Shown here in pieces: positions 12,271-60,000 of a DNA stretch of 64,000 nt. Below the pieces are notes generated by a model, which had not been told where the DNA came from, did no database searches, and saw only the letters and a program-made list of their open reading frames with translations. This DNA is from an uncultured Thermoplasmata archaeon (lineage in GTDB: Archaea > Thermoplasmatota > Thermoplasmata > Lutacidiplasmatales > UBA184), in NCBI GenBank assembly GCA_963749235.1, contig CAVVLV010000001.1, positions 1,147,039 to 1,211,038 on the forward strand, given 5' to 3'. Both the position numbers and the translations under genes were made by a program. How positions within the stretch are numbered: the first letter of the stretch is position 1; every line of letters starts with the position of its first letter.

Positions 12271-12274
12271 GACG

Positions 12275-13861
12275 ATGGATCTCGTCTCGTTCGCGGCGCC
12301 GTTCGTGCCCGAGCTCATCCTGCTCGGCGCGGCGCTGCTGATCTTCCTCCTGGACGTCCTCCACCTCCGCCGGAACGAGTGGCTGAGCACGATCGCGGTC
12401 ACCGCCACGGTCCTCGGTCTCCTCTCGGTCGTGGGCGACCTGGGGTTCGCCCCGTTGAGCGTGCTCGCGACCGTCCCCTCTTCCCAGATCGATGCGATCC
12501 CCGCCCTCGGGGCCGCGCCGCTTTACCACTTCACGTCGCTGGGCCTCATCTTCCAGGGGATCTTCCTCCTCTCTGCCTTCCTGGTCGTCCTCGCGTCGGC
12601 GAGCCGCCCGTCCGACGAGCCGGGCGCCCCGATCTTCTACGGCCTGCTTCTGCTCGCGACCCTCGGCATGCTCCTGGTCGCGATCGCCTCGGACCTGATC
12701 TTCCTGCTGCTGGCGATCGAGGTGACCAGCATCGCGACGTACCTCCTCGTCGGGTACCATCGGCGGGAGCCCCGATCGATGGAGGCGGCGATGAAGTTCT
12801 TCATCATCGGAGCCCTCTCCACCGTCCTCTCGTTCTACGGTGCCTCCCTCCTCTTCGGGGCGTACGGCACCACCAACCTGTACCTGCTCCACACCGCCGG
12901 CGGCAACGTCGGGTACCCGGTGCTCGTCCTCTTGGGCTACGGGTTCCTGATCGCCGGTCTCGCGTTCAAGGTCACCCTGGTGCCGTTCCACGCCTGGGCG
13001 GTCGACGTGTACGACGGCGCCCCGAGTGACGTCAGCGCCTTCCTCGCCGGCGGGACCAAGAAGATCGGGCTCTTCGCGTTCTTCCTGGTCTTCTTGGGGC
13101 CGGTCCTGTTGATCGCGCCGGGCGCGGGTGGGAACTCCCCGTTCTCGGGGGGGCCCCTCGACCTCGGGCCGACCCTCTCCATCACGCTCGGGGTGCTCGC
13201 GGTCCTGACGATGACCGTGGGCAACGTGCTCGCGCTTCTCCAGAAGGAGATGAAGCGCATGCTCGCGTACTCGTCCATCAGCCAGGCCGGCTACATGCTC
13301 ATCGGGGTCGCGATCGGGTCCGCCCCGGCCCTTACGGGAGCGACGTTCCAGATCCTGGCCCATGTGCTGATGAAGGGCGGCGCCTTCCTCGTGGTCGCAG
13401 GGGTCGCCGGCCTCGGGGTCGGCCCGCTCATCGACGACTGGAAGGGGCTCGGCGTACGCCGCCCGCTCCTGGGCTCGGCGTTCGCCCTGATGCTCCTCTC
13501 GCTCGCCGGCGTTCCGCTGACCATCGGCTTCCTGTCGAAATTCGTCCTCTTCTCGTCGGCCGTCCAGGCGCAGGGCTTCTTCGTCTGGCTCGCGGTCGCG
13601 GGGGTCCTCAACAGCGCGCTCTCGCTGTTCTACTATGGACGGGTCCTGAAGGTCCTGTTCTTCGACCGGGGCGCAGAGGGCGGCTCGACGGGATCCGCCA
13701 CCCCGGGGGCTTCCGCCCTCCCGGCGGGAGGACTGGGCTACGGTCGGGCGGTCGCGATCGGGCTGGCCGCCGTCCTGATCGTGGGGTTGGGCCTCTATCC
13801 GCAGCCCGTGCTCGGGGCGATCCAGTCGGCCGCCCAGCACTTCGTGGCCCTCGGAGTGTAG
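12275..13861 (+). CDS. nuoN: NADH-quinone oxidoreductase subunit N
   Basis: 528-aa antiporter-like subunit (VPFHAWAVDVYDGAPSDVSAF). Last nuo gene. Confidence 0.9.
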   Translation: MDLVSFAAPFVPELILLGAALLIFLLDVLHLRRNEWLSTIAVTATVLGLLSVVGDLGFAPLSVLATVPSSQIDAIPALGAAPLYHFTSLGLIFQGIFLLSAFLVVLASASRPSDEPGAPIFYGLLLLATLGMLLVAIASDLIFLLLAIEVTSIATYLLVGYHRREPRSMEAAMKFFIIGALSTVLSFYGASLLFGAYGTTNLYLLHTAGGNVGYPVLVLLGYGFLIAGLAFKVTLVPFHAWAVDVYDGAPSDVSAFLAGGTKKIGLFAFFLVFLGPVLLIAPGAGGNSPFSGGPLDLGPTLSITLGVLAVLTMTVGNVLALLQKEMKRMLAYSSISQAGYMLIGVAIGSAPALTGATFQILAHVLMKGGAFLVVAGVAGLGVGPLIDDWKGLGVRRPLLGSAFALMLLSLAGVPLTIGFLSKFVLFSSAVQAQGFFVWLAVAGVLNSALSLFYYGRVLKVLFFDRGAEGGSTGSATPGASALPAGGLGYGRAVAIGLAAVLIVGLGLYPQPVLGAIQSAAQHFVALGV

Positions 13862-22202: not shown

Positions 22203-22644
22203 ATGGTCGCAGTGGGAGAGATCGCCCCGAAGTACCACGCCTTGACCCAGGACGGCGCCCCGTTCGCCTCGGACTCGCTCCGGGGAAAGCGGGTCGTGCT
22301 CTACTTCTATCCGAAGGCCGACACCCCCGGTTGCGACGATCGAGGCGAAGGGATTCCGGGACGAGCTCCCCCAGTACCGGGCGAAGGGCGTGGAGATCGT
22401 CGGCGTGAGCACGGACGACTGCCCCGCCCAGAAGGCGTTCGCGACCAAGTACGGGCTCTCCTTCCCCCTCCTTGCCGACTCAAAGAAGGAGGTCGCGACG
22501 ACGTTCGGGGTCCTCCGCCCGACCGGGACGGCGCGGCGCGTCACGTTCTTGATCGAGAAGGACGGGAAGGTCGCCGAGGTGATCGACTCCTCCTCGGTCG
22601 ACGACCACCTCAACCGGGCGCGCGCCCGCTTCCTGACGGGCTAG
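22203..22644 (+). CDS. bcp: peroxiredoxin (Bcp/PrxQ type), +1 frameshift at ~22335
   Basis: VVLYFYPKADTPGC is in frame 0. TIEAKGFRDELPQYRAKGVEIVGVSTD...FPLLADSKKEVA is in frame 1. Removing G22335 restores the PGCT active-site motif. Confidence 0.85.
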
Positions 22645-25600
22645 TCGCGACCCCGTCCGTTGGCCCGGCGTCCGCCGCCGCGGCGACGGGGGCTTGGGGG
22701 CGCGTCCGGTCAGGCTCCAGGCCCGGTCGCCCACCAGTTGAAGCGCTGCCGGCACGAGGTAGGTGCGGACCACCATCGCATCGAGCACCACCGCGATGGC
22801 GACGGAGAAGCCGATCGCACGAATGAGGGTGAACTCTCCGATCAGGAGGGCCGCGAACGCGCTCGCCAGGATGACCGCGGCCGCGGTGATGATCCCGCCG
22901 GTGCGGCCGATCGCGGTCACGATCGCGGCGGTCGAGGAGGCGCCCTTGACCCGCTCCTCCCGGACCCGGGTCAGGACGAAGATGTTGTAGTCGATCCCCA
23001 GGCCGAGGATGAGGAGGAACATGATCGTCCGGACGTAGAAGAAGAGCGGGAACCCGAGGACGAGCTGGAAGACCAAGTAGGTGACCGCCCATGCCCAGGA
23101 GATGGAGAGGGCGATGGTCGCGATCGCCATCACGGCGATGATCCAAGAACGAAGGACCGCGAGCAGGACCAGGAGGAGCCCGATCGTGACGGCGATCACG
23201 AGGATCTCGGTCGCCGTCGCGGTCTCGTCGGCGAGGTCGCCGATCGTGGGCGCGCCCCCCCCGTATGCGACGGACGTGATGTCGGGATGGGACGACGCGT
23301 AGTTCGCGAAGGTCCCCTCGACCGACTTCACCGCGGCGACCGCATCGGACGAGAGTCCCGTCGAGCTCGGCTGGAGGGAGAGCAGGACCGTCCGTCCGTC
23401 GGTCCCCACGAACCCTTCCAAGAGCCCGAGCAGGTTCTGCTGCGGCGCCGGTAGGAGGGCCGAGAGGTTCTCCCATTCGCTCAGGGGCGCCCCGAATGGT
23501 CCGACCGGAGACTGGACGACGGCGATCCCCGACGTATTCTCCGCGAGCGAGGTCAGGTGGGCCACGTCCGTAAACTCGGTCACGTTCGTATAGTTCCCGA
23601 CCACCAGGGGGCTCGCGAACGTCACCAGCGCGAACGAAGGGACCGCGAAGCCGTCCCCGAAGTGGGAGTACAGCGACTGGAGCCCGTCGGTCGCGGGATG
23701 GCCTCCCGGAAGCTGGCCGTAGAAGTCGTACGCGAGCGGAACCTGGAGCGCGACCAGGACCAGCGGGATGCTCACGAGCAACAGGATCCCGAGAACGGTG
23801 GCGGGGCGTCGTTGCGTCAGGCGACCCGCGCGGTAGAAGTACGTGGCGCCGGCCGACGTCCGCGCGTTCACCTCCTCTGCCCGGCGGTCGAAGCGCCGGC
23901 CCGTGTCGGGCCAGAAGATCCGGGGGCCGAGGAGCTTCAGGGCCGCGGGTACGAGGGTGAGGGAGAGCAGGATCGTGAAGAGGATCGCAAGGGCGAGCAC
24001 CCGTCCCCACTGGGAGAGGAGGGCGACCCCGCTGAAGGTCAACGCGAGGGTGGCGATGATGGCCGTCGAACCGCTCGTCGCGACGGATTGACCTGCCCAG
24101 GCGAGCGACTGCTCGATCGCCTCGTCCGAGGACCGCCCCCGGTGGAGCTCTTCGCGGTACCGGGCCACGATGAAGATCGAGTAATCGGTCCCCACACCGA
24201 GCACGAAGACCTCCTCGAGGGTCAGGGACGTCGAATCGACCGGTCCGAAGAGCACGCCCAAGAGGACGGTCCCGCCGAGGGCCAGGACGAGGGCGATGCT
24301 GAGCGCCGCGAACGTCATGAGCGGCGTCAGCGGGGACCGGAAGTACGCCATCGAAATGACGAGGAGCAGGCCGACCGTGAGCGGCAGGACGAGCCGGAGG
24401 GAGTCGTCCACGATCGTGTTGGTCACGAGGTCCAAGGGCGCCGACCCGGTTTGGTAATACCGGATCGAGTGGGTCGCATCCGAGTCCGCCAGCACCGGGC
24501 CGACCCGGTCATCGATGGCAGGCAGGTCCGCGTAGACCGGTTGGCCGCCGCTCGAGTTCGTGTAATCGTCGGTCACGGAGAACGAGACCGAGATGAGGGA
24601 CGCGGTCCCGGCGGCATTCACGAAGGGACTCGAGAGGGCGTACGGAACCGGGAGCGGCTCGGTCCAGAGGGTCCCGTTCGACACCGTCCCGTTGGCCCAG
24701 GCGAGGGCGTCGGAGGCGGAGACCGACCCGGAGGGGAACGCGGCCCACACGGTGTCGACCCAACCCGCGGGCATCCCGACCTCCCCCGCGACGAGGGTCG
24801 ATGCGGTCGCCCGAACCTCGGGCCAGGCGGAAAAGTTCTCGACCTCCATTCCGGTGAGCGCAGCGGCTCCAACCGCTTGTCCCGAGCGTGGGAGAAGGCT
24901 GGGCAAGAGCGGCAACTCCTGGGTGCGAACGACCCGGTCGAGACAGGCTACCACCGCGACGGGGTCGGCGGCGCAGGCGGCGGTCCCGTTGAACCCGCCG
25001 ACCGACCCGTTGAACCCGGAGTAGAACGCGTCCAAGACCGCGAGTTGGGCGGCGTTGAAATGCCCGGCGGCGAGGGTCGCCTGATAGGCCGGGAAGTTTG
25101 CGCCGGAGGCGTTCCCCGAAGTGCCGTTCGCGTCGGATTCCCACTCGGAGAGGAACAGGGAGGGAACTCCCCAAAGGAGCGCAGCCGTTTGGTTGAGGCT
25201 CGTGAGTAGGCTCGGGGACGCGTGGGCCGCCCCTTCGATCCCCCCGGCGGCGAGTCGAACCTGCCCGGCGAGGTAGCTCGCGTAGCTCGTGTACACGCTC
25301 GCCACGTGGGCCACGTCCGTGAGCGACCGGTCGGAGACGAGCGTCCGGGTGACGTTCTCGATCACGCCCTGGCCGTTAGGGTCGGTGAGGTTCGTTCCGA
25401 CGAACAGGAGGATGCTCGACGCCCCCCCCGATTCGTTGGGGAAGAGTCGGGCGAGCTCGGCGTTCGCGACCGCGCTCGGCGAGTTCGTGGGGACCGACTC
25501 GGTCGAGTTGGTCGTGACGGACCCGAGCAGGGGTAGGAAGGGGATCACGAGGACGAGCAGGACCACCCAGAATACGACCGGATACCACGGGTGACGGAGG

Positions 25601-25668
25601 ATCCCGCGAGCGAGTCGGCTAAAGATCCGGGCCCCCGACGGGGTGCGTTCGGGCTCCCGGCGGGACAC
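22480..25668 (-). CDS. MMPL/RND-superfamily membrane transporter
   Basis: 1062-aa with two blocks of ~6 TM helices and two large soluble loops (GTDYSIFIVARYREE, GIDYNIFVLTRVREE). The last ~80 residues are Arg-rich and antisense to bcp, so the true C-terminus may be shorter. Confidence 0.8.
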   Translation of the reverse strand: MSRREPERTPSGARIFSRLARGILRHPWYPVVFWVVLLVLVIPFLPLLGSVTTNSTESVPTNSPSAVANAELARLFPNESGGASSILLFVGTNLTDPNGQGVIENVTRTLVSDRSLTDVAHVASVYTSYASYLAGQVRLAAGGIEGAAHASPSLLTSLNQTAALLWGVPSLFLSEWESDANGTSGNASGANFPAYQATLAAGHFNAAQLAVLDAFYSGFNGSVGGFNGTAACAADPVAVVACLDRVVRTQELPLLPSLLPRSGQAVGAAALTGMEVENFSAWPEVRATASTLVAGEVGMPAGWVDTVWAAFPSGSVSASDALAWANGTVSNGTLWTEPLPVPYALSSPFVNAAGTASLISVSFSVTDDYTNSSGGQPVYADLPAIDDRVGPVLADSDATHSIRYYQTGSAPLDLVTNTIVDDSLRLVLPLTVGLLLVISMAYFRSPLTPLMTFAALSIALVLALGGTVLLGVLFGPVDSTSLTLEEVFVLGVGTDYSIFIVARYREELHRGRSSDEAIEQSLAWAGQSVATSGSTAIIATLALTFSGVALLSQWGRVLALAILFTILLSLTLVPAALKLLGPRIFWPDTGRRFDRRAEEVNARTSAGATYFYRAGRLTQRRPATVLGILLLVSIPLVLVALQVPLAYDFYGQLPGGHPATDGLQSLYSHFGDGFAVPSFALVTFASPLVVGNYTNVTEFTDVAHLTSLAENTSGIAVVQSPVGPFGAPLSEWENLSALLPAPQQNLLGLLEGFVGTDGRTVLLSLQPSSTGLSSDAVAAVKSVEGTFANYASSHPDITSVAYGGGAPTIGDLADETATATEILVIAVTIGLLLVLLAVLRSWIIAVMAIATIALSISWAWAVTYLVFQLVLGFPLFFYVRTIMFLLILGLGIDYNIFVLTRVREERVKGASSTAAIVTAIGRTGGIITAAAVILASAFAALLIGEFTLIRAIGFSVAIAVVLDAMVVRTYLVPAALQLVGDRAWSLTGRAPKPPSPRRRTPGQRTGSRLARQEAGARPVEVVVDRGGVDHLGDLPVLLDQERDAPRRPGRAEDPERRRDLLL

Positions 25669-43767: not shown

Positions 43768-44688
43768 TCAATCCGGGGCCGGGCCCGTCTGGGCCATCTG
43801 GACCGCCCGGATCGAAAGGGCAAACGCCCCGAGGATCGCGAGCGCGCCGGAGCCCTCGAGGAGGATCGGGAAGGCGCTCCCGAGGGAGAGGAAGGCGAGG
43901 GCGACCGGTGCGAACAGGCCCGCGCCTCCCGCCACGACGCCCACCGCGGGGCGGTCGGACCGGAGGGTCAGCGCCGCGGCGTACCCCGTCAACAGCGCGA
44001 CGAACCCGAGAATGACAACCCCGCCGCCGATCGCCGCGACGAACTGCTCCAGGTTCGGGTACGGCGTGAGCGCGACGGTGGAGCTGTTGGTCGCGCTGCC
44101 GGGGGTGAGCTGGACGATCATCCCCGAGTTCCCCGAAGAATACAGAGTGGAGACGAAGACGCCGACCGTGATGGGCGAGTACCCGGCGTCCGTGATCGTG
44201 AGAGCGACCCCGCCCGCCGGCAAACCCAGGAGCGAGAACGTTCCCCCCGACCCCACGATGGTGGTGAAGGTCGCGCCGGACTCCACGGTGGCCACCACTT
44301 GGGCCCCGCTCCCTGGCAAGATCCCGCCGGACGCGGGAGCCAACTGGACGGTCCCGCTGACCGAAAATTCGCCCGGCGCCGGCGCGAGAACGGCATAGTA
44401 CCCGAAGAGGGCGGCCAGGACGGCGGCCAGGATCGCCGTGCCGACCAGCGCGCCGGCGGCGAGGCGGCGCACCCGCCATCGCGGGATGCGGGGCGCCGGC
44501 AGCGCGCGGTAAAGACCCGGCATCACTTCCCAGCTGTAGAGCGGGGGCGGGTCGCGCGGGACGACGACCGGCACCGGGGCATGGCATTGCGCGCACGGAA
44601 ACCACTGGGTCGGCGGCGCCGGGGCGAGCAGCACGCGAAGCGGAGTGCCGCACGCGGGGCAGCGCACGGTCGTCGCCGGTCCGACCAT
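43768..44688 (-). CDS. hypothetical membrane protein: N-terminal zinc ribbon, one TM, carboxypeptidase-regulatory-like beta domain, C-terminal TM bundle
   Basis: 306-aa. CPACG...CAQCH motif. GTVQL...GTFSLLGLPAGGVALTITDAGY resembles CarboxypepD_reg. Hydrophobic C-terminus. Confidence 0.55.
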   Translation of the reverse strand: MVGPATTVRCPACGTPLRVLLAPAPPTQWFPCAQCHAPVPVVVPRDPPPLYSWEVMPGLYRALPAPRIPRWRVRRLAAGALVGTAILAAVLAALFGYYAVLAPAPGEFSVSGTVQLAPASGGILPGSGAQVVATVESGATFTTIVGSGGTFSLLGLPAGGVALTITDAGYSPITVGVFVSTLYSSGNSGMIVQLTPGSATNSSTVALTPYPNLEQFVAAIGGGVVILGFVALLTGYAAALTLRSDRPAVGVVAGGAGLFAPVALAFLSLGSAFPILLEGSGALAILGAFALSIRAVQMAQTGPAPD

Positions 44689-44721
44689 CGGGCCCGACCG
44701 AGCGGCCCCGGGGTCTTAGCC

Positions 44722-45321
44722 TTGCGGCGGGCCTTCGCGAAGGACCACTTCCGCGTGGTCGGCGTAGATGACGGGGCGTTCACTCGAGAGGACACGTGGG
44801 CGCCGGTCGCTGCGGTCGCCGTGGCCGCCCCGGACCGGGTGGAGGCGATGCGCGTCGGGCGGGTCCGGGTCGACGGGCGGGGGGCCGCGACCGAGATCGT
44901 GCGGCTGGTCCGCGCCACCGGCGGGCTCGAGGGGTTGCGCGCGGTCCTCCTCGACGGAGCGGTCGTCGGGGGGTTCAACGTGGTCGACCTGGACGCAGTC
45001 CACGCCGCCTTGGGCGTGCCGATCGTCGCCGTCACACGTCACCGCCCCGACTTTCCGGGGATCCTAGCCGCGCTGCGCAAATGGTTCCCGCGCGACGCGG
45101 CGGCCCGCTGGAAGCTCCTGCGTGCCCATCGGCTCTACGCACTTCCTTTCGCCGACCTCCCGCTCCTCGTCGCGACCGTGGGTTGCGGACGCGCGGACGC
45201 GGCCGTGCTCGTCCGTAAGACCACCGTGCGGGGACACGTCCCCGAGCCGATCCGCCTGGCCCACCTCGTTGCCTCGGCTGGACCGACCCCGGGCCCGTCG
45301 CCCCGAAAGAAGAATCCTTAA
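44722..45321 (+). CDS. DUF99 / UPF0215 family protein (endonuclease-V-like fold)
   Basis: TTG at 44722. FRVVGVDDGAF...VDGRGATEIV...AVLLDGAVVGGFNVVD...PIVAVTRHRPD matches the DUF99 pattern. Confidence 0.65.
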   Translation: MRRAFAKDHFRVVGVDDGAFTREDTWAPVAAVAVAAPDRVEAMRVGRVRVDGRGAATEIVRLVRATGGLEGLRAVLLDGAVVGGFNVVDLDAVHAALGVPIVAVTRHRPDFPGILAALRKWFPRDAAARWKLLRAHRLYALPFADLPLLVATVGCGRADAAVLVRKTTVRGHVPEPIRLAHLVASAGPTPGPSPRKKNP

Positions 45322-45346
45322 GGGGAACGGCCCCCGTCGGAGGTGC

Positions 45347-45453
45347 GGGCCTGTAGCTTAGCCCGGACGAAGCACTGGCCTTCTAAGCCAGCTAACTCGG
45401 GTTCAAAGGTCCGGGGCGAGCACCGCCCCGGACGGAGATTCCCGACAGGCCCG
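45347..45453 (+). tRNA. tRNA-Arg (anticodon UCU) with a 32-nt intron in the T-loop (45408-45439)
   Basis: Hand-folded cloverleaf. Acceptor GGGCCUG/CAGGCCC; U8; D arm GCUU-AGCCCGGACG-AAGC; anticodon arm CUGGC-CUUCUAA-GCCAG; variable loop CUAAC; T stem UCGGG/CCCGA; T-loop UUCAAA[intron]U; discriminator G. Confidence 0.85.
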
Positions 45454-45570
45454 CCCCCAGGGGGAGCCACATCCCGATTACCGAGCACCCACCGTTTCCT
45501 CACCCGGGGAGTTGGCCAACCCCGGGAAGTTCCTCGATCGGTCGGGGGGGCCGCTCGGCGTGAACCCGAG

Positions 45571-46576
45571 ATGAAATACGACTGCGCGATTGGCCCCCGT
45601 GCGATGCCGCGGGAGGAGGTGTTGGACTGGTTGCTCGAACCCGAGCAGCCGTCGGTGCGCTACCTCGCGTTGACCCAACTCCTCGGGAAGAAGGAGAGCG
45701 ACGCGGAGGTCCGCAAGGCCAAGGCTCGCATTCCAACTACGGGATGGGTGGCCGACACGCTCGCCCGCCGGAACGCCGCCGGATGGTGGGAGCGGGACAA
45801 GGGCTGGATGGAGCCCCGGTTCACGGCGACCCACTGGACGATGCTCGCGTTGGCCGATCTGGGGGCGACGCGGGCCATCCCGCAGGTGGCCGCGTCGGCG
45901 GAGGTACTGGATGGCCAAGTCGCCGCTCGAAGGAGGGGGCGTGGGAGGCTTCGGGAAGGGGAAGGGGCACCATTGTTACACGGCCAACATGGCGCGCGGC
46001 CTCCTTCGCATGGGCTTCGAAGACGACCCCCGGGTCCGCAAGACTCTCGAATGGCTGGTCCAGACCGCCCACCCCAAGGGAGGCTGGTCCTGCCGGTACG
46101 TCAAGAACGGGCCGGCCACGAGCCGTTCGCTCGACGCGTGGGAGGGATTGGGCGCCTTCGCCGCGTACCCTCGTTCCCGTTGGAGTCCGGCGGTGAAGGC
46201 CGTCGTGGAGCGGACCGCCGAGTACTACCTCGAGCACGAGCTCCACATTCAGGGCGACCGGTACGAGCCATGGTACCGCTTCCACTGGCCCGTCCACTAC
46301 TACTACGACCTGTTGGTCGGCCTGGATTGCCTGACTGCGCTCGGCTACGGCAACGACCCGCGACTGGGGTACGCGCTCGACCTCCTGCGCAAGAAGCAGC
46401 GGCCCGATGGAACGTGGGTCCTCGACGCGTTCCAACCGGATCCGTACCCGGAGTTCGTCGATTGGTTTGCGAACCACCCCGGAAACTGTCCGGTGCCGCT
46501 GACATTCGAGGCGGAAGGAAAACCGAGCAAAATGATCACGCTGAGGGCGATGACCGTCCTTTCGCGCCTGAATTAG
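45571..46576 (+). CDS. hypothetical alpha/alpha-toroid (prenyltransferase/terpene-cyclase-like repeat) protein, +1 frameshift at ~45903
   Basis: MKYDCAIGPRAMPREEVLDWLLEPEQPSVRYLALTQLLG... is in frame 1 up to SAE. YWMAKSPLEGGGVGGFG...HPKGGWSC...QRPDGTW is in frame 2. Family assignment is tentative. Confidence 0.5.
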
Positions 46577-46647
46577 GAACGTGCGCCGGGTCGGCGACAT
46601 TTCGAGACCCCTGGCATCGGGTGGGGTGGGACCGAAGCGTCCGCGGT

Positions 46648-47710
46648 CTAGCTTCCGGCGACTTCCGCGGCGCACTTGTCGCACAGGATGCCCTTCGCAT
46701 CGGACGGGAGCGGCGCCCCACAGAGGGGGCACGACGCCCGGGCGTCCGCCGCCGCGAGGAGTTCTTGTACGCTCGTGCGCAGCGCCGGATTGGCACCGCC
46801 CGTGTCCGGCGGGGGCGCGCTCGGTTCGGCGACGGGAACCGGCATGAACGCGTCGAGCCGGGGGCGGTAGACGCCGGTCCGGCGGTCGAACGTGACGAGG
46901 CCACGGGCCGCGAGCCCCTGGAGCGCGGAGTCGACGAGCTCGCGCACCCCGCCGAATACGTGGGTCATCTCGAGCGCGGTGAGCCCGTGCGACTCCACGA
47001 TCACCGCAAGGCAGCGCGAGGCGAGGAGCGGCATTTCCCCCCGGCCGACCAGGCGGTCGACGTACCAGCTGACCCGGGCGGACCGGCGCACGCGGCGCTG
47101 AGGAGGGAGCCGGCGGCCCGGGGGTCGGTGAGAATGAGGGAACGGACCAGGTCGAGATCGTACGTGACCCGCTCGTCCGGGTAGTAGGCGAGGACGGAGA
47201 CGCAGAACGGGAGGAGCGCGATCGAGCGGCTCCCCACCAGCCCCTCCTGGAGGCTACGGAGGTGAGTGGCGATGGCAACGCGCGCCCCGCCGGCGGCCGC
47301 CCGGTCCTCCTCGACCCGGGTGCGGGGCAAATAGTGCTCCCGAAGGAGGAACCGCGCGATCACGCGCGTCGGCGCGCCGGTCGCGACCGGGAAGACCTGG
47401 GCGGACCCGTCGGTTTCGAAGACGATCCGTTCGAAGGGACGGAGGAACTCCCACGGCGCCCCGGGGCCGGCGCCGGGTCGAGCCGAAGCTCGATCGGGGA
47501 CGTGCTGGCCGCGGGGTTCGCGGCGAGTTCGTAGACCGTTGAGTACTCCTGTTCACCGACCCGGAGCCGGAACGGCCCGATCGGGGTCCGCCGGCGGGCG
47601 AGATACTCCTCGTACGCACGAGTGAGGGCACGCTCGGAGTAGGCGTCGTGCCGTTCGGCCGCCAGCTGCCGTGCGATCTGGTCGAGCTCAGCCAGGGGAA
47701 CGACTGCCAT
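46648..47710 (-). CDS. hypothetical protein with C-terminal winged-helix and CxxC...CxxC zinc-ribbon-like motif; two frameshifts (~47465, ~47065)
   Basis: Three consecutive ORFs (47360-47710, 47001-47363, 46648-47091) join into one coherent ~350-aa reading. wHTH-like LTALEMTHVFGGVRELVDSALQGLAARGLVTFDRRTGVY. C-terminus CPLCG...CDKC. Confidence 0.5.
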
Positions 47711-48897
47711 TCGAACTCCGCGCCTCGATGAGATGCTCGTAGAGGAAGATAAAGCGACGGGCCATCGTCTCGACCGACGCGCGTTCTCGGACGTACTCGC
47801 GACCGTGGGCGCCCAAGGATCGGCGCAGCACGGGATCGTCCGCGAGCTGGACGAGCGCCGCCGCGAGCGCCCCGGGCTCGAGGACCGGGACCCGCCGACC
47901 GTTCCGCCCGTCCTCGAGCAGCTCCGCCGCGCCCCCCTCGGCCGGACCGATCACTGCGGTGGCGCAGGCCATCGCCTCCAGGAGGGCGATGCTGGACGTA
48001 TCGCTGGTGGAGGGCAGGACGAAGACGTCACTCTGCCCGAGCAGGGCCGGCTTTTCCTCCTCGGCCACGGGTCCCACGTACCGGGCGATCCCTCGGAGTC
48101 GAGGGTCGTCCCGGATCCGAGCCCGCACCGCGGCCTCCTCCGGCCCGGCGCCGCCGACGACCGCGACCACGTCGGTGCGGGCGCGGGCGTCCGCGACCGC
48201 GTCGAGGAAACGGTGCACGCCCTTGTCGACCGTCAGCCGGCCCAGATACGTAACGAGGGGCACCGAGGAGAATCCGCATCGCGCGCGCCAATCGGGGACG
48301 GTGACGTCGGGCGCGAACCGGTCGAGGTCGATCCCGTTGGGGACGACCTCCACGGACCGTCGGAATGGTTTCCGCACGCTTCCGACGAGCGCGTCGCGCG
48401 CCGCGACCGAGGGCGCGGTCGCGACGTCACACCGCCAGGTACAATCCCAAGTTCCACCACCAGGCGACGCGAAAGAACGACGGGACCAAGAACTTCGACG
48501 GTACGCTCGAGGCCATCTCGCGAATATTCGTATGGAACGTTCCCAAGAGCGGTCGGCCGAAGCGGCGGGCGGCCAGGAAGCCGACGCTCCCCAAGCCGCC
48601 GGGCGAATGGACATGCAGCACGTCCGCCTCCGCGGCCCCCTGCGCTTCGCGTAGCGCGCTGAACGGGAATAACGGCCATCGGTACTGCCCATAGAGCGGG
48701 ACCCGAAGGCTGCGGAGCCGACGCACGGAGACCCCGCCCTCCCGGCTCTCCTCGGAGGGAGCCCCGCTCACCGGATTCGGTGCAAAGACCCGGACTTGGT
48801 GGCCGAGGCGGACCAGCTGGTTGGCTAGGCTGCCCGTGACCTGGGCGACCCCGTCCCGCATCGGCGGGTAGGAGTCCGTGAAGAACGCGATCTCCAT
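47688..48897 (-). CDS. GT4-family (GT-B) glycosyltransferase, single-base insertion at ~48438
   Basis: The N-terminal domain MEIAFFTDSYPPMRDGVAQV...VHSPGGLG...GTFHT is in one frame. The C-terminal part VVPNGIDLDRF...FVLPSTSDTSSIALLEAMACATAVI is in another. Confidence 0.8.
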
Positions 48898-48988: not shown

Positions 48989-49774
48989 TTATAGTACGCT
49001 CTGGAACGCGCGCTCGAGGCGGCTCGCGTCCTTGAGATCGAGCGACCTCGGGTCGAAGGAAACGATGAGGGCCGAGCCGGTGTCGTGGACCTGGGTGACG
49101 AGCCAGTTGACGAACCGGAGGGTCAGCTCGAGGGAGTGCTCCGTGGCGAGGAATTCGAGGGCGTCGACGTAGACGAGCGCGCCGCCGGCCAGCTCCGTCG
49201 GACCGCGGAGTCGTCCGCTGATCTCCCCCGGCGTCGGCAGGGTCGACGCGAGCCCTTCGCCCGCCCCGCTCGGGGAGATCACGACCAGCCGCTCTGCGCC
49301 CAGGTCGGGGATCGTCGGCGGATGGAGGGAGACGACGGCGACCCGGGGGAAGTCCGCCACGTTCGTCCGCAGGATCTCGAGCGCGCGCGCGGGTCGCTCC
49401 TCCCGGACGAGGACGCTCCGGCCCGCGCCGAGGTGGATCGCCGCGGGTGGAGGGGTCGGACCCACCGGACTGAGCCAGGGCCGGGCCGAGGTCGGCGGCC
49501 GGAGCAACGCCCCCCATGCCGGGCGCCGCGGGGGCGCGAGGAGGCTGCGACGTTTCAAATCGACCTCCTCCGAGAGGCGGGCGAGGCGGCTTTCCGCGAG
49601 CATGCGGAGCTCTTGAGTCGTGTGGCCGCGCGAGGCGTGTCCCAAGACCTCCCGCAACGCGCTCCGGACCCCTTCCTCGTACCCCGTCGCGTAGGCCCGG
49701 ACGTATTCCTCGTCGGTCGGGTCCTCCTCCGGCGGTCGGGAAGGAGCGCCGTCCCGGCGCGGCGAGTCGTTCAC
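48989..49774 (-). CDS. DUF835 domain protein
   Basis: GTG at 49774 overlaps the DUF35 stop (GTGA). The C-terminal ~170 aa fit the DUF835 pattern (SVLVREERPARALEIL...ALVYVDALEFLATEHSLELTLRFVNWL...ALIVSFDPRSLDLKDASRLERAF). The remaining 538 codons of the 799-aa ORF are antisense to the thiolase gene. Confidence 0.6.
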   Translation of the reverse strand: MNDSPRRDGAPSRPPEEDPTDEEYVRAYATGYEEGVRSALREVLGHASRGHTTQELRMLAESRLARLSEEVDLKRRSLLAPPRRPAWGALLRPPTSARPWLSPVGPTPPPAAIHLGAGRSVLVREERPARALEILRTNVADFPRVAVVSLHPPTIPDLGAERLVVISPSGAGEGLASTLPTPGEISGRLRGPTELAGGALVYVDALEFLATEHSLELTLRFVNWLVTQVHDTGSALIVSFDPRSLDLKDASRLERAFQSVL

Positions 49775-50259
49775 GCCGGGGCCCGGTCCGGCTCCGGGGT
49801 ACCGGACGGGACGGGCGGCCGGGTCCCCCGGCGGCCCGGCACAGGATCGGTGTCGACGGCGGGGGCGAACTTGTATCCGTAATGGATGACGCCCGCCTTC
49901 CCCTCCTCCCGGAGCTTTCGGAAGGTCGCACGGACCCGAAGCCCGATCGCGACCTCGGGGGGGTTCACGTCCACGACCTGGCCGGTGAGCATCGGTCCCT
50001 CGACGGTCTTCACGAGGGCGACCACGTACGGGACCTGCATCTCGAATCCTTCGGCCGCCTCGTGGACGACCGTGAAGGAGTACACGGTCCCATCGCCGCT
50101 CAACTGGAACGGCGCCATCTTCTCGATCGTCTGCCGGTGGTGCGGGCAGGTGGGGCAGACCGAGCGCGGGGGGAAATAGACCGTCTCGCAGACCCCGCAT
50201 CGGGAGCCACCCAGATTGTAGCGTCGGGGCGTCTCGCGCCAGAAACGTGCGACCGACAT
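49771..50259 (-). CDS. DUF35 OB-fold/zinc-ribbon protein (scaffold of the archaeal thiolase-HMG-CoA synthase complex)
   Basis: 162-aa. CGVCETVYFPPRSVCPTC zinc ribbon, then an OB-fold segment GTVYSFTVVH. Confidence 0.8.
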   Translation of the reverse strand: MSVARFWRETPRRYNLGGSRCGVCETVYFPPRSVCPTCPHHRQTIEKMAPFQLSGDGTVYSFTVVHEAAEGFEMQVPYVVALVKTVEGPMLTGQVVDVNPPEVAIGLRVRATFRKLREEGKAGVIHYGYKFAPAVDTDPVPGRRGTRPPVPSGTPEPDRAPA

Positions 50260-50268
50260 GGGACCCTC

Positions 50269-51438
50269 CTACGCCGCCCTCTCCAGGAGGTGGACCACGC
50301 TCGTCGCACCGGTGCCGCCGACGTCGTGGGTGAGCCCGAGCGTGGCGTCCTTCACCTGCCGGTCTTTTGCCTCGCCCCGGAGCTGCTTCACGATCTCCAC
50401 GACCTGGGCGACCCCGACTGCACCGAACGGACGTCCTTGGGCCTTCATCCCCCCGGACGGGTTGAGCGTGAGCGGGCCCGCGAAGCCGAACCGTCCCGAG
50501 GCGAATTCCGGGCCGGCCTCCCCCTTCTCGACGAATCCCAGGTCCTCGAGCGCGACCAGCGCGCTGATCGTGTAGGCATCGTTGATCTCGGCGACGCGCA
50601 CGTCGGCCGGGGCGCGGCGGGCCCGTTCGAAGGCGTGCCGCGCCGCGACCACCGTCGACTCGACCGTGGTCACGCTCGCCCGGTGCTGGAGCGCCATCGT
50701 GTCGCAGGCGACCTCGCTCGCGGCGATGCGGATCGGGATGTCCGTGTGTCCGCGGGCCATGTCGAGGGGACCTAGGACGACCGCCGCCGCTCCGTCCGAG
50801 AGCGGGGCGCAGTCGAGCATCCCGAGCGGTTCCGCGACCTCGCCCGCCCCCATCACCTGTTCCAGCGTCAGCTGGTTCCGGTAGTGGGCGAGCGGGTTCT
50901 TCGCGGCCATCGCGTGGTCGTGGACGGCCACCCGGGCGAGCTGCTCGCGCGTTGTGCCGAAGTCGTGCATGTGCCGCTGGGCCACGAGGCCCCATAGGGC
51001 GGGGAGCGTCGCACCGAAGACGACCTCCCACTCGTGGTCGGCGGTGGAACTCGTGATCCGGTTCGCCGTTTCGTCGGGGACGTCCGTCATCTTCTCGGCC
51101 CCGCCCACGACGACAAAGTCGTACTGGCCGCTCGCGACCGCCAGGTATCCCGCATGCAGGGCGAGGGCACCGGAAGCGCCGCCCCCTTCCACCCGGACCG
51201 CGGGAAGGTGCCGACCGGCGAGGCCGGCGTAGTCGAGGATCAGCGGCGCGATGTGCTCCTGGTCGAGGAGAGAGCCCGAGGCCATGTTCCCGAGGAACAA
51301 TCCCCCCAGGTCGGCCGACGAGAGCTTCGCGTCGACGAGCGCCTGCAGGCCGGCTTCGATCCCGATCTCCCGGAAGGAGCGGTCCCACAGCTCGCCGAAC
51401 TTCGTCTGACCGACGCCGAGCACGGCCACGTCGCGCAT
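50269..51438 (-). CDS. acetyl-CoA C-acetyltransferase (archaeal thiolase)
   Basis: 389-aa: MRDVAVLGVGQTKFGE..., GGGASGA, and C-terminal GLTHDVGGTG. Confidence 0.88.
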   Translation of the reverse strand: MRDVAVLGVGQTKFGELWDRSFREIGIEAGLQALVDAKLSSADLGGLFLGNMASGSLLDQEHIAPLILDYAGLAGRHLPAVRVEGGGASGALALHAGYLAVASGQYDFVVVGGAEKMTDVPDETANRITSSTADHEWEVVFGATLPALWGLVAQRHMHDFGTTREQLARVAVHDHAMAAKNPLAHYRNQLTLEQVMGAGEVAEPLGMLDCAPLSDGAAAVVLGPLDMARGHTDIPIRIAASEVACDTMALQHRASVTTVESTVVAARHAFERARRAPADVRVAEINDAYTISALVALEDLGFVEKGEAGPEFASGRFGFAGPLTLNPSGGMKAQGRPFGAVGVAQVVEIVKQLRGEAKDRQVKDATLGLTHDVGGTGATSVVHLLERAA

Positions 51439-51440
51439 GG

Positions 51441-52493
51441 CTACTCCCCTCCCATGTGGATCTTGCCCCGGAACTTCGCGTAGACCGCGTAGGGGATCTC
51501 GATCCCCGCGTCCAGGTACTCTTGCACCGGGCGTCCGAACGAACGGTCGTAGTTCGCGATCTCGTCCATGACCTCGAAGTCGAAGGCGTCGGAACCGGCG
51601 CCCGAGCCGTAGCCGACCATCAGGATCCGTTCGCCGGGTTGGGCCCGGTCGAGCACGTTCGCGAGGCCGATCAAGGCGGCTCCCGAGTAAGTGTTGCCGA
51701 TGTACGGGGTTACGAGGCCGTACTTCATCTGGGCCTCCGTGAAGCCGAGCTGCTTACCCACCCGCTGCGGGAACTTTCCGTTCGGCTGGTGGAAGACCAC
51801 GTGGGCGTAGTCCTTCGGGGTCGTGCCCGACGCCGCGAACATCCGCTTCGCGCATTCGGTGACGTGACGGAAGTACGCAGGCTCCCCCGTGAACCGGCCG
51901 CCGTGGCTGGGATACTTCTGTCCCTCCCTCCGCCAGAAATCAGGGGTATCGGTCGTGTAGGAGAGCGTGCCGAGCACGCGGGCGATGACCCGCTCGCGGC
52001 CGATGATCATGGCGGCTCCGCCGGCGCTCGCCGAGTACTCGAGCGCGTCCCCGGGGGCGCCTTGCGACGTGTCCGTCCCGATCGCGACGCCGTAGCGGAT
52101 CATCCCCGAGCCCGCGAGGCCGAGGCAGGTTTGGATCGCCGCGGTGCCCGCCTTGCAGGCGAACTCGAAGTCCGCCGCGGTGAGGTTCGGGGTCGCTCCC
52201 ACCGCCGACGCGACCACCGTCGCGGTCGGCTTCACGGCGTAGGGATGGGATTCGGAGCCGACGTAGATCGCTCCGATCTGCTGCGGGTCGATCCCGCCCC
52301 GCACGAGCGCGACCCGGAGGGCTTCGGTCGAGATCGTGATGGTGTCCTCGTCGGGGGCGGGGACGCTCTTCCGGATGACATTGAGTCCCTGCCCCATCCC
52401 CTCCCCGTCGACGCCCCAGACCCGCCCGATCTCGGCGGGCGTGATCCGGTATCTCGGCACATACGCTCCGTAGCTCACGATCCCTGCGTCCAT
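51441..52493 (-). CDS. hydroxymethylglutaryl-CoA synthase
   Basis: 350-aa: [14 protein letters not shown]...PDEDTITIS...FACKAGT...[10 protein letters not shown]. Confidence 0.88.
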
Positions 52494-58050: not shown

Positions 58051-58095
58051 GTTGGGGGCCGGCTTTTGGGCCGTCGATCCTTCGGGAAAACCACC

Positions 58096-60000
58096 ATGGC
58101 AAAGATCATCGGAATCGACCTCGGAACCAGCAACTCGGCGGCCGCCTTCTTGGAAGGGGGTCGCCCGGCGATCATCCCGAGCGCCGAAGGGACGACCGTG
58201 GGCGGCGGCAAGGCGTTCCCCTCGTACGTCGCCTTCACGAAGGACGGACAGCTCATCGTCGGGGAGCCGGCTCGACGCCAGGCGATCTCCAACCCGGAAG
58301 GGACGGTCACCGCCTTCAAGCGGAAGATGGGGACCGACTACCATTACACGCTGCACGGCAAACCCTACACGCCGCAGCAGCTGTCGGCGTTCCTCCTCCA
58401 GAAGATCAAGCGGGACGCCGAGGCGTTCCTCGGCGAGAAGATCGAGAAGGCGGTCATCACCGTCCCCGCCTACTTCAACGACAACCAGCGCCAGGCGACG
58501 AAGGACGCGGGCGCCATCGCCGGCCTCGATGTCGTGCGGATCATCAACGAGCCGACCGCCGCGAGCCTGGCGTACGGCCTCGACAAGGCGGGCAAGAACC
58601 AGAAGATCCTTGTCTTCGACCTGGGCGGGGGCACCCTCGATGTCACGATCATGGACTTCGGCGACGGGGTGTTCGAGGTCCTTTCCACGAGCGGCGACAC
58701 GCAGCTCGGTGGCACCGACATGGACAGTTCGATCACCGACTGGATCGCGGCCGAATTCCAGAAGGAATCCGGGGTCGACGTCCGCAAGGACAAGATGGCG
58801 GCCCAGCGCGTTCGGGACGCCGCCGAGAAGGCGAAGATCGAGCTCTCCTCCACCCTCGAGACCCAGGTCAACCTCCCCTTCCTGACCGCGACCTCGGACG
58901 GACCGAAGCACCTCGCGGTGACCCTGTCGCGGGCCAAGCTCGAGGAGCTGGTCCGCCCGATCGTCGACCGGTGCAAGGGCCCTGTTGAGCAAGCAATCCG
59001 CGACGCGAAGCTGGCGAAGGACCAGATCAGCCGTATCGTCCTCGTCGGCGGTCCGACGCGGATGCCGATCGTTCAGAAGTTCCTCGAACAGGCCGTTGGG
59101 CGCCCGATCGAACGCGGCGTGGACCCGATGGAGTGCGTCGCGCTCGGCGCCGCCGTCCAGGGCGGGGTCCTCGCGGGTGAGGTCAAGGACGTCCTCCTGC
59201 TGGACGTCACGCCGCTCTCGCTCGGCGTGGAGACCATGGGCGGAGTGGCAACCAAGCTGATCGAGCGCAACACCACGATCCCGACCCGAAAGAGCCAGAT
59301 CTTCACGACGGCCGCCGACAACCAGTCGTCGGTCGAGATCAAGGTCTTCCAGGGAGAGCGGCCCCTCTCCGCCGACAACGTCGCGCTCGGCAGCTTCCTC
59401 CTGACCGGGATCCCTCCCGCCCCGCGGGGGACCCCGCAGGTCGAGGTCGGGTTCGACATCGACGCCAACGGGATCCTGAGCGTTTCCGCGAAGGACTTGG
59501 CGACGGGACGGAAGCAGGGGATCACGATCACCGCGGCGAACAAGCTCTCCAAGGACGAGGTGCAGAAGATGGTGCACCAGGCCGAGGAGTTCGCCTCGAC
59601 CGACCGGGAGCGGGCGGAGCTCGTCACGGCGAAGAACCAAGCCGAGTCGCTCGCCTACGAGGCCGAGCGCGTCCTCGCGGACTCGAAGGACAAGATCGAG
59701 GAGGCGGACGCCGCGGACGTGACCGGGAAGGTCGCGGCCGTCCGGCAGACGCTCCAGGCCAAGGACGCCACGGCCGCCCAGCTCCACGACCAGACCGATG
59801 CCCTGACGAAGGCGTTGCACGCCATCGCTCAGAAGCTGTACCAGCAGGCCGCAGCGAGCCCGCCGGGACCGTCGGCCGATTCCGGTGGACCGAGTGAGCC
59901 CACGCCCCCTCCCAGCGACGCCGGTCCCTCCTCCGGTCCCGTGGACGCCGACTTCAAGGTCGTCGACGAGGACACGGGCAAGGAGAAAGGCGACTCCTAG
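58096..60000 (+). CDS. dnaK: molecular chaperone DnaK (Hsp70)
   Basis: 634-aa from [14 protein letters not shown]. Also DLGGGTLDV and [10 protein letters not shown]. The ORF track starts 10 codons earlier at an alternative start. Confidence 0.93.

What the first reader, a model, noticed from the sequence alone, without database searches (positions are those of the whole stretch)
45347..45453. tRNA-Arg(UCU) interrupted by a 32-nt hairpin intron inside the T-loop (position 59/60)
Every arm of a canonical cloverleaf is present, but only if 45408-45439 is removed.
- The T stem UCGGG (45397-45401) pairs with CCCGA (45441-45445). The T-loop reads UUCAAA...U.
- The inserted 32 nt are GGUCCGGGGCGAGCACCGCCCCGGACGGAGAU. 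They contain a perfect 10-bp hairpin: 45409-45418 pairs with 45424-45433.
- Archaeal tRNA introns are canonically at 37/38. T-loop introns are known mainly from Thermoproteales-type crenarchaea and a few other lineages.
- The surrounding gene content (dnaK, RbkR) does not obviously point to such a lineage.
- Standard gene callers often miss genes of this kind.
Basis: partly seen in the sequence, partly recalled or inferred. Interest (0 to 1): 0.68.

Follow-up and report, generated by a model that had tools for sequence, protein, structure and literature searches.

The report
T-loop intron in archaeal tRNA-Arg
This is a real arginine tRNA gene of a soil archaeon, interrupted in its T-loop by a 32-base intron of the known protein-spliced archaeal type; the intron is conserved across a whole group of related archaea, so it is a solid but fairly ordinary find.

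Summary
Window 45347-45453 (+) encodes tRNA-Arg(UCU) split by a 32-nt insert (45408-45439) between T-loop positions 59 and 60. Removing the insert gives a clean 75-nt cloverleaf.

The insert and the T arm together form an archaeal bulge-helix-bulge (hBHBh') splicing motif. It has the same geometry as canonical 37/38 introns, moved to the T arm. One of the four central-helix pairs is always a purine·A57 mismatch.

The host is a 68.7% G+C uncultured Thermoplasmata archaeon, most likely Ca. Lutacidiplasmatales. Seventeen other Thermoplasmata species carry a 29-35 nt insert at the same site. Their exons are almost invariant, and 7 of the 9 scored hairpin pairs covary. A TATA-like box sits at -28 to -32 in 17 of the 18 genes. 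No intron-less allele was found in a metagenome scan.

ARAGORN and the generic Rfam tRNA model miss or truncate these genes.

The 59/60 site and BHB introns are well documented. tRNAscan-SE 2.0 already records rare non-canonical introns in sister Thermoplasmata orders. Verdict: new member of a known kind, of modest interest. The clade's endonuclease type and actual splicing remain untested.

The parts
45318..45322 (+). TTAAG box, a putative TATA element of the tRNA promoter. It is preceded by a purine-rich stretch, cgaaagaagaa (45304-45314), which may be a BRE.
   Evidence: A TT(A/T)A(A/G) box lies 28-32 nt upstream of tRNA position 1 in the window and in 16 of the 17 orthologous loci examined. 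The flanks are otherwise unconserved and about 69% G+C. The distance to the tRNA is kept whatever the frame or end of the upstream ORF. Promoter function is inferred, not shown. In the window its TAA (45319-21) is also the stop codon of the upstream Endo_dU gene.
45347..45407 (+). Exon 1 of tRNA-Arg(UCU), tRNA positions 1-59. It holds the acceptor 5' strand, D arm, anticodon arm (anticodon UCU at 45382-45384), variable loop, T-stem 5' strand and T-loop nucleotides 54-59.
   Evidence: It is almost invariant across the 17 aligned sequences.
45408..45439 (+). 32-nt BHB intron. It consists of G45408 (third nucleotide of the 5' bulge), the h' hairpin (45409-18 pairing with 45424-33, loop 45419-23), the Hb strand GGAG (45434-37) and AU (45438-39, first two nucleotides of the 3' bulge).
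   Evidence: Orthologous inserts are 29-35 nt long with the same layout. In the h' helix, 7 of the 9 scored pairs change on both sides and 93.5% of cells are paired.
45440..45453 (+). Exon 2: U60, the T-stem 3' strand CCCGA (45441-45), the acceptor 3' strand CAGGCCC (45446-52) and discriminator G73 (45453). No CCA is encoded; CCCCCA follows.
   Evidence: It is invariant in all orthologs except for one discriminator change.
45397..45445 (+). The complete hBHBh' splicing motif.
- h: T stem, 45397-401 pairing with 45441-45.
- H: UUCA (45402-05) against GGAG (45434-37), giving U54·G, U55-A, C56-G and an A57·G mismatch.
- 5' bulge: AA|G (45406-08).
- 3' bulge: AU|U (45438-40).
- h': 10 bp.
The predicted cuts fall after 45407 and after 45439.
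   Evidence: The same register rule gives a perfect 4-bp H for two canonical 37/38 introns recovered in the same scan, L042 and L024. Three H pairs are kept in 17 of 17 sequences, with a G-to-A change opposite U54 that preserves pairing. The fourth is never a standard pair.

Best explanation
Window 45347-45453 is the functional tRNA-Arg(UCU) gene of a high-GC soil Thermoplasmata archaeon, most likely Ca. Lutacidiplasmatales. It carries one protein-spliced archaeal intron of 32 nt between T-loop positions 59 and 60.

Proposed mechanism:
1. The gene is transcribed from its own TATA-like promoter about 29 nt upstream (inferred).
2. In the precursor, the T stem forms helix h. T-loop nucleotides 54-57 pair with the intron's 3' tail to form central helix H. 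The intron hairpin forms helix h'.
3. This places two 3-nt bulges four positions apart, which is a bulge-helix-bulge motif in the same loop position (6|7) as canonical 37/38 introns.
4. The archaeal splicing endonuclease EndA cuts after the second nucleotide of each bulge, that is after A59/45407 and after 45439.
5. An RtcB-type ligase joins the exons. The result is a 75-nt tRNA with the normal 7-nt T-loop UUCAAAU, and CCA is added afterwards.

What is shown: the anatomy, the conservation and the covariation. What is inferred: cleavage, ligation and promoter use.
For: - The cloverleaf appears only after the insert is removed, and ARAGORN then calls a clean tRNA-Arg(tct).
- The host is archaeal and a Thermoplasmata. 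Three orthologs come from MAGs named as Lutacidiplasmatales in PMC9287336.
- Seventeen other species have a 29-35 nt insert at the same site.
- Exons are nearly invariant, while 7 of the 9 scored h' pairs show compensatory changes. Overall 95.3% of cells are paired, and 0 of 500 shuffles reach the observed covariation score. Sliding the partner columns collapses pairing to 32-53%.
- The BHB register rule is validated on two canonical introns.
- The predicted spliced T arm equals that of the intron-less ortholog L100. The spliced junction is 25/25 identical to intron-less tRNA-Arg genes.
- No intron-less Arg(UCU) allele with these exons turned up in the metagenome scan.
- A promoter-like box is conserved at a fixed distance from the tRNA.
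- The literature lists 59/60 as a known BHB intron site (PMC4090602). A 59/60 intron of ARMAN-2 tRNA-Cys is cleaved in vitro (PMC3239211).
Against: - The central helix is not a strict 4-bp helix. The pair next to the 5' bulge is A57·G, or A57·A in one ortholog, in all 17 sequences.
- Nearest-neighbour energies put the BHB fold 3.2 kcal/mol above an open 7x7 internal loop.
- Reviews state that the α4 and α'2 enzymes typical of Euryarchaeota need a strict 3-4-3 motif. The endonuclease type of this clade is unknown, and no EndA lies in the window or the related loci.
- There is no RNA evidence for splicing.
Confidence: 0.9

Rival explanations
1. The locus is a disrupted tRNA pseudogene. A 32-nt hairpin-forming insertion killed the gene, and another gene supplies tRNA-Arg(UCU).
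For: Generic tools score it poorly. Rfam tRNA gives 30.6 bits over only 45347-45405, and ARAGORN miscalls the gene as 45345-45424. The genome scan was truncated, so a second copy cannot be formally excluded.
Against: - Exons are almost invariant across 17 species while the insert's helix changes freely and stays paired. That pattern shows purifying selection on both the tRNA body and the intron structure.
- The promoter-like box is conserved.
- No intron-less allele was found in the metagenome collection.
- No second Arg(UCU) locus from any intron-bearing assembly appeared among the 120 rows returned.
Confidence: 0.03
2. The insert is retained in the mature RNA, giving a tRNA with an expanded T-loop hairpin, rather than being spliced out.
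For: There are no RNA data. The central BHB helix is imperfect and thermodynamically marginal.
Against: - The 7-nt T-loop and its contact with the D-loop are universal requirements of elongator tRNAs (established knowledge).
- The conserved parts of the insert are exactly those that build the two bulges and helix H, and the hairpin varies in sequence and length.
- The layout mirrors canonical BHB introns base for base.
Confidence: 0.03
3. The intron is real and spliced, but only because this clade has an endonuclease with broadened specificity: an (αβ)2-like or ε2-like enzyme, or an α'2 or α4 enzyme with an extra specificity loop. The motif would then count as relaxed rather than strict.
For: - The A57·purine mismatch is conserved in all 17 sequences.
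- The literature links non-canonical introns to enzymes carrying specificity loops, including α4 enzymes with an L3 loop in some lineages.
- Sister orders also hold a few non-canonical introns.
Against: Both 3-nt bulges and both flanking helices are present, so the motif departs from the strict hBHBh' form only at one H pair. Known Thermoplasmatales enzymes are α'2 homodimers (PDB 2OHC seen; Ferroplasma abstract). No EndA sequence from this clade was examined.
Confidence: 0.25
4. The insert is an assembly or binning artefact, or the remnant of a mobile-element attachment site.
For: The window comes from a metagenome-assembled genome. tRNA 3' halves are common integration sites (established knowledge).
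Against: The same architecture occurs in 17 independent assemblies from different studies, with different intron sequences. The exon 2 sequence is not duplicated. The flanking genes are syntenic housekeeping genes, and no integrase lies next to the tRNA.
Confidence: 0.01

Closest known systems
[quoted passage not shown]
   Same: The insertion point (59/60) is the same, and the intron is a short one of about 13-35 nt. The splice sites are defined by bulges flanking a helix built from T-loop nucleotides and the intron tail. The mechanism is protein-only, endonuclease plus ligase.
   Different: The host is a Thermoplasmata euryarchaeon rather than a crenarchaeon or a DPANN archaeon. The gene has a single intron and is not part of a heavily disrupted tRNA set, as far as can be seen. 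The motif keeps both bulges (hBHBh'-like), whereas ARMAN-2 tRNA-Cys has the relaxed hBH form. It also has a conserved A57·purine mismatch in H.
Canonical 37/38 archaeal tRNA introns with a strict hBHBh' motif
   Same: The geometry is identical: stem (h), four loop nucleotides paired to the intron tail (H), a 2|1 bulge at each splice site, and an intron hairpin (h'). The intron lies between loop positions 6 and 7 of a 7-nt loop.
   Different: The motif is built on the T arm instead of the anticodon arm. One of the four H pairs is non-standard. Splicing must come before formation of the T-loop/D-loop elbow.
Non-canonical tRNA introns recorded by tRNAscan-SE 2.0 in Methanomassiliicoccales (6 in 3 genomes) and Thermoplasmatales (1 in 5 genomes)
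   Same: The class (Thermoplasmata) and the kind of feature are the same, and in both cases such introns are rare in the genome.
   Different: The positions and tRNA identities of those introns were not available here. The Methanomassiliicoccales ortholog of this gene (L075) has no intron. Lutacidiplasmatales genomes were not part of that survey.

Membership tests
Archaeal BHB (endonuclease-spliced) tRNA intron | Two 3-nt bulges on opposite strands carry the splice sites | tested here: met
   The bulges are AA|G (45406-08) and AU|U (45438-40). The same positions are present in all 17 aligned sequences.
Archaeal BHB (endonuclease-spliced) tRNA intron | A central helix H of exactly 4 base pairs lies between the bulges (strict 3-4-3 form) | tested here: inconclusive
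   U54·G/A, U55-A and C56-G are kept in 17 of 17 sequences. The fourth position, A57 opposite G or A, is never a standard pair. The spacing is right but only 3 of 4 pairs are standard. Whether a sheared A·G pair fills the slot cannot be tested here.
Archaeal BHB (endonuclease-spliced) tRNA intron | Flanking helices h and h' of at least 2 bp lie on either side | tested here: met
   h is the 5-bp T stem, which is invariant. h' is a 9-13 bp hairpin in which 7 of the 9 scored pairs covary.
Archaeal BHB (endonuclease-spliced) tRNA intron | Removing the intron at the bulge-defined sites restores a canonical tRNA | tested here: met
   ARAGORN calls a clean 75-nt tRNA-Arg(tct) on the spliced sequence. 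The T arm is identical to that of intron-less ortholog L100. The junction is 25/25 identical to intron-less tRNA-Arg genes.
Archaeal BHB (endonuclease-spliced) tRNA intron | The host encodes the splicing endonuclease EndA and an RtcB-type ligase | not testable with these tools
   No EndA homolog is present in the 64-kb window or in the 17 syntenic loci. Presence is expected because EndA is conserved throughout Archaea (PMC3239211).
Archaeal BHB (endonuclease-spliced) tRNA intron | A spliced product is observed in RNA | not testable with these tools
   No transcriptome data were available.
tRNA (Rfam RF00005), isoacceptor Arg(UCU) | A cloverleaf with conserved U8, A14, G18G19, U33, T54-Ψ55-C56, A58 and the G53-C61 pair, with anticodon UCU | tested here: met
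   All are present in the spliced sequence. The unspliced gene still reaches 30.6 bits against the 29-bit gathering score. Intron-less orthologs reach 65-68 bits.
Group I self-splicing tRNA intron | A catalytic core of P3-P9 helices, more than 200 nt long, normally in the anticodon loop | tested here: not met
   The insert is 32 nt long and lies in the T-loop. The window has no Rfam intron hit.
Intron-encoded C/D box sRNA (as in haloarchaeal tRNA-Trp) | C (RUGAUGA) and D (CUGA) boxes within the intron | tested here: not met
   Neither motif occurs in the 32 nt.

The most novel reading that the evidence does not exclude
The 59/60 intron is kept across the order because it matters, and is not just tolerated. 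One version: Lutacidiplasmatales have evolved an endonuclease with altered specificity that accepts the conserved A57·purine mismatch, which would be a new instance of tRNA and EndA evolving together inside the Euryarchaeota. Another version: the intron is selected, for example to shield the T-arm and 3' half from integrase targeting, or to order T-loop modification after splicing.
Probability: 0.12. Interest if true: 0.5.

Novelty: new member of a known kind. Interest (0 to 1): 0.3.

Why it matters
For annotation: in this abundant soil archaeal group, the only tRNA-Arg(UCU) gene found is missed or truncated by ARAGORN, and it barely passes the generic Rfam model. Genome completeness and codon-capacity estimates for AGA decoding can therefore be wrong unless an intron-aware caller is used.

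For biology: it adds a well-supported, clade-wide non-canonical intron in a euryarchaeal lineage. Such introns are rare there (25 among 6,970 genes in the tRNAscan-SE 2.0 survey). The prevailing view ties them to broad-specificity endonucleases.

It gives a clean natural substrate, nearly strict in form, in the T arm, with one fixed mismatch, for testing how strict α'2-type enzymes really are. It does not reveal a new mechanism.

Tried and rejected
- MAFFT alignment of the full precursors (A1) put the variable hairpin out of structural register. I replaced it with an in-register alignment (A2) in which only the apical loops were cut out, and counted pairs on that.
- Identifying the clade's EndA type failed. 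The M. jannaschii EndA sequence I recalled was validated against PDB 1a79, but it found nothing in the window or the syntenic loci. A database search limited to the top 120 hits would have returned only Methanococcales, so I did not spend one.
- I tested the idea that the conserved TTAAG box is merely the stop codon of the syntenic Endo_dU gene. The box keeps its distance to the tRNA even where its TAA is out of frame with, or far from, that gene (L005, L052, L086, L099). A promoter element is the better reading, but both roles overlap in the window.
- I rejected the pseudogene, retained-insert, att-site, artefact, group I intron and C/D-box sRNA readings. The reasons are under the rival explanations and the membership tests.
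As substitutes I used ARAGORN on the spliced sequence and Rfam scores of intron-less orthologs.
The taxonomic extent of the intron and the absence of second copies are therefore lower-bound statements.

Full report
**1. The observation**

- Acceptor stem: GGGCCUG (45347-53) pairs perfectly with CAGGCCC (45446-52). G45453 is the discriminator.
- D arm: 45356-59 pairs with 45370-73.
- Anticodon arm: 45375-79 pairs with 45387-91. The loop is CUUCUAA and the anticodon UCU lies at 45382-84.
- T stem: UCGGG (45397-401) pairs with CCCGA (45441-45).
- Between the two T-stem strands lie UUCAAA, a 32-nt insert (45408-39) and a single U (45440).
- The insert contains a perfect 10-bp hairpin, 45409-18 pairing with 45424-33.

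With the 32 nt deleted, ARAGORN returns a textbook 75-nt tRNA-Arg(tct) with a 7-nt T-loop, UUCAAAU. The unspliced 107-nt sequence folds much better than shuffles (z = -4.35).

On the raw window, the general tools recognise only the 5' part.
- ARAGORN miscalls the gene as 45345-45424, using the intron hairpin as a false T arm.
- The Rfam tRNA model gives 30.6 bits for 45347-45405, just above its 29-bit threshold.

**2. The organism**

The window is 68.7% G+C. It encodes an archaeal-type ribosomal protein L3 inside a ribosomal-protein operon, plus DnaK, a NuoL-like subunit and a thiolase. The L3 protein occurs exactly in assembly GCA_049585655.1, and its closest homologs are all labelled 'Thermoplasmata archaeon'.

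Three of the orthologous tRNA loci found later come from MAGs SubAcS15-31, AcS1-3 and SubAcS13-64. Sheridan et al. 2022 (PMC9287336) list these as Ca. Lutacidiplasmatales (TMEG / GTDB UBA184), soil archaea with about 69% G+C. The window shares its tRNA exons, gene order and 62-72% identical flanking proteins with SubAcS13-64. It therefore most likely belongs to that order or a close relative. This placement is an inference.

**3. The splicing motif**

Applying the archaeal bulge-helix-bulge layout to the T arm gives the following.
- h: the T stem.
- H: T-loop nucleotides 54-57, UUCA (45402-05), against GGAG (45434-37).
- 5' bulge: A58 A59 | G (45406-08).
- 3' bulge: A U | U60 (45438-40).
- h': the 10-bp intron hairpin.

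I derived the register (four loop nucleotides paired to the four intron nucleotides that precede the last two, with a cut after the second nucleotide of each bulge) from the canonical 37/38 case. I then checked it on two canonical introns recovered in the same database scan. For L042 (Acidilobaceae) and L024 (Nanoarchaeia) the rule gives a perfect 4-bp H.

In the window it gives U54·G, U55-A, C56-G and an A57·G mismatch. The motif is therefore hBHBh' in layout, with both bulges and both outer helices, but with only three standard pairs in H. Position 59/60 is the T-arm equivalent of 37/38: both lie between loop nucleotides 6 and 7 of a 7-nt loop.

Nearest-neighbour energies do not favour the 3-bp H. 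The BHB fold scores -28.2 kcal/mol against -31.4 for an open internal loop. The motif may therefore depend on a non-standard A·G pair or on the enzyme.

**4. Relatives**

I scanned one genome per species for the D-arm plus anticodon-arm pattern of tRNA-Arg(UCU).

Seventeen Thermoplasmata MAGs from several independent studies carry a 29-35 nt insert at exactly the same site. Every insert has the same plan: one unpaired G, a 9-13 bp hairpin, then RGAR-RN directly before U60.

Other lineages have the gene uninterrupted at this site.
- Other Thermoplasmata: L100 and the Methanomassiliicoccales locus L075.
- L010 (labelled 'Methanobacteriota archaeon').
- All the other archaea in the scan. A few of these have introns elsewhere in the gene.

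I counted pairs on an in-register alignment of 17 sequences in which only the apical loops were removed (A2).
- Exon helices never vary, apart from one compensated anticodon-stem pair.
- In the h' helix, 7 of the 9 scored pairs change on both sides, and 93.5% of cells are paired.
- Over the whole structure 95.3% of cells are paired, and none of 500 shuffles reach the observed covariation score.
- Sliding the partner columns by 1-3 positions drops pairing to 32-53%.
- In H, the base opposite U54 switches between G and A and keeps the pair. The pairs with U55 and C56 are invariant. The base opposite A57 is always a purine.

This is the pattern expected of a functional tRNA whose intron is constrained only in structure.

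**5. Other support**

- The predicted spliced T arm, UCGGGUUCAAAUCCCGA, is identical to that of the intron-less Thermoplasmata ortholog L100.
- I probed 241 million metagenome records with the 25-nt spliced junction. It found only four contigs. All are intron-less tRNA-Arg(CCG) or tRNA-Arg(GCG) genes from organisms with 41-48% G+C.
- The junction is therefore a genuine tRNA-Arg 3' half, and no intron-less Arg(UCU) allele with these exons turned up. The clade itself is well represented in those metagenomes, since many JGI L3 homologs are 80-90% identical.
- Intron-less orthologs score 65-68 bits with Rfam tRNA. Intron-bearing ones score 30.6-37 bits with truncated coordinates.
- ARAGORN finds nothing in 10 of the 17 intron-bearing loci, one of which is cut by a locus edge. 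It truncates the gene in the other 7.
- A TTAAG-type box preceded by a purine-rich stretch lies 28-32 nt upstream of tRNA position 1 in the window and in 16 of the 17 loci examined.
- In the window the box's TAA doubles as the stop codon of the upstream Endo_dU-domain gene. In L005, L052, L086 and L099 the box is not the in-frame end of that gene, so it tracks the tRNA. I read it as the TATA element. This is an inference.

**6. Comparison with what is known**

- BHB introns at non-canonical positions, 59/60 explicitly included, are textbook archaeal features (Yoshihisa 2014, PMC4090602; Hirata 2019, PMC6379350).
[quoted passage not shown] ARMAN-2 pre-tRNA-Pro has introns at 53/54 and 59/60 that form a strict hBHBh' motif (Fujishima 2011, PMC3239211).
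- The reviews associate non-canonical introns with (αβ)2 and ε2 endonucleases. They state that α4 and α'2 enzymes need the strict 3-4-3 motif.
- Non-canonical introns are rare in Euryarchaeota: 25 among 6,970 tRNA genes. tRNAscan-SE 2.0 nevertheless already lists 6 in three Methanomassiliicoccales genomes and 1 in five Thermoplasmatales genomes (PMC8450103, Supplementary Table S7). Its archaeal mode searches for BHB introns by default.
- My text searches found no report of this particular intron, or of tRNA introns in Lutacidiplasmatales. That library is incomplete, so this is weak evidence.

**7. What remains open**

- The endonuclease type of the clade is unknown. No EndA is encoded in the window or the syntenic loci, and the rest of the genome was out of reach.
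- Whether the conserved A57·purine mismatch is tolerated by an ordinary α'2 enzyme, or reflects an enzyme with altered specificity, is untested.
- Splicing, ligation and promoter use are inferred, not shown.
- The genome scan was truncated. The full taxonomic spread of the intron and the absence of a second gene copy are therefore not established.

**8. Verdict**

It is a new, clade-wide example of a known kind of element in a lineage where such elements are uncommon. It has practical value for annotation and some value as a test substrate for endonuclease specificity. It does not point to a new mechanism.
- Interest: 0.3.
- Confidence that it is an endonuclease-spliced 59/60 intron in a functional tRNA-Arg(UCU): 0.9.

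Noticed in passing
window 47688-48897 (-): A GT4 glycosyltransferase appears split into two overlapping ORFs. ORF 48427-48897 carries the N-terminal Glyco_transf_4 domain, and ORF 47688-48692 carries the C-terminal Glycos_transf_1 domain. This could be a frameshift, a pseudogene or an assembly error.
   Followed up: no
window 44299-45321 (+): An Endo_dU (PF01949) domain protein lies immediately upstream of the tRNA. Its TAA stop (45319-21) sits inside the tRNA's TATA-like box. The gene order Endo_dU, tRNA, orf147 (on the opposite strand) is conserved in most related MAGs.
   Followed up: partly
window 49771-52493 (-): A thiolase (50269-51438) lies next to a DUF35/ChsH2-type OB-fold protein (49771-50259) and a third, unannotated ORF (51441-52493). 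The arrangement resembles the archaeal thiolase / HMG-CoA synthase / DUF35 trio that feeds the mevalonate pathway. The third gene was not checked.
   Followed up: no
window 45343-47184 (+): A 613-aa GTG-initiated ORF runs straight across the tRNA gene. It is a typical spurious long ORF of a 69% G+C genome and could be miscalled as a protein where the tRNA is missed.
   Followed up: no
window 58066-60000 (+), 8947-13861 (+), 22480-25668 (-): The window also encodes a bacterial-type DnaK, a NuoL-like subunit of respiratory complex I at 8947-10797 followed by two further long ORFs that were not checked, and a large MMPL/RND-family transporter. This fits the aerobic soil lifestyle described for Lutacidiplasmatales.
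   Followed up: no
L033 (Solimonas soli NZ_KI440837.1), locus positions about 6400-6450 (-): A bacterial tRNA-Arg(UCU) 5' half, up to the anticodon arm, is followed directly by non-tRNA sequence. It could be a truncated tRNA copy left at the edge of an integrated element, or a long intron.
   Followed up: no
L091 (Thermoproteaceae WANN01000033.1) and L042 (Acidilobaceae JALTZJ010000048.1): The same tRNA-Arg(UCU) carries other introns in crenarchaea. L091 has a short non-canonical insert just after the anticodon arm, and L042 has a 41-nt canonical 37/38 intron. They show how the intron position in one isoacceptor differs between lineages.
   Followed up: partly
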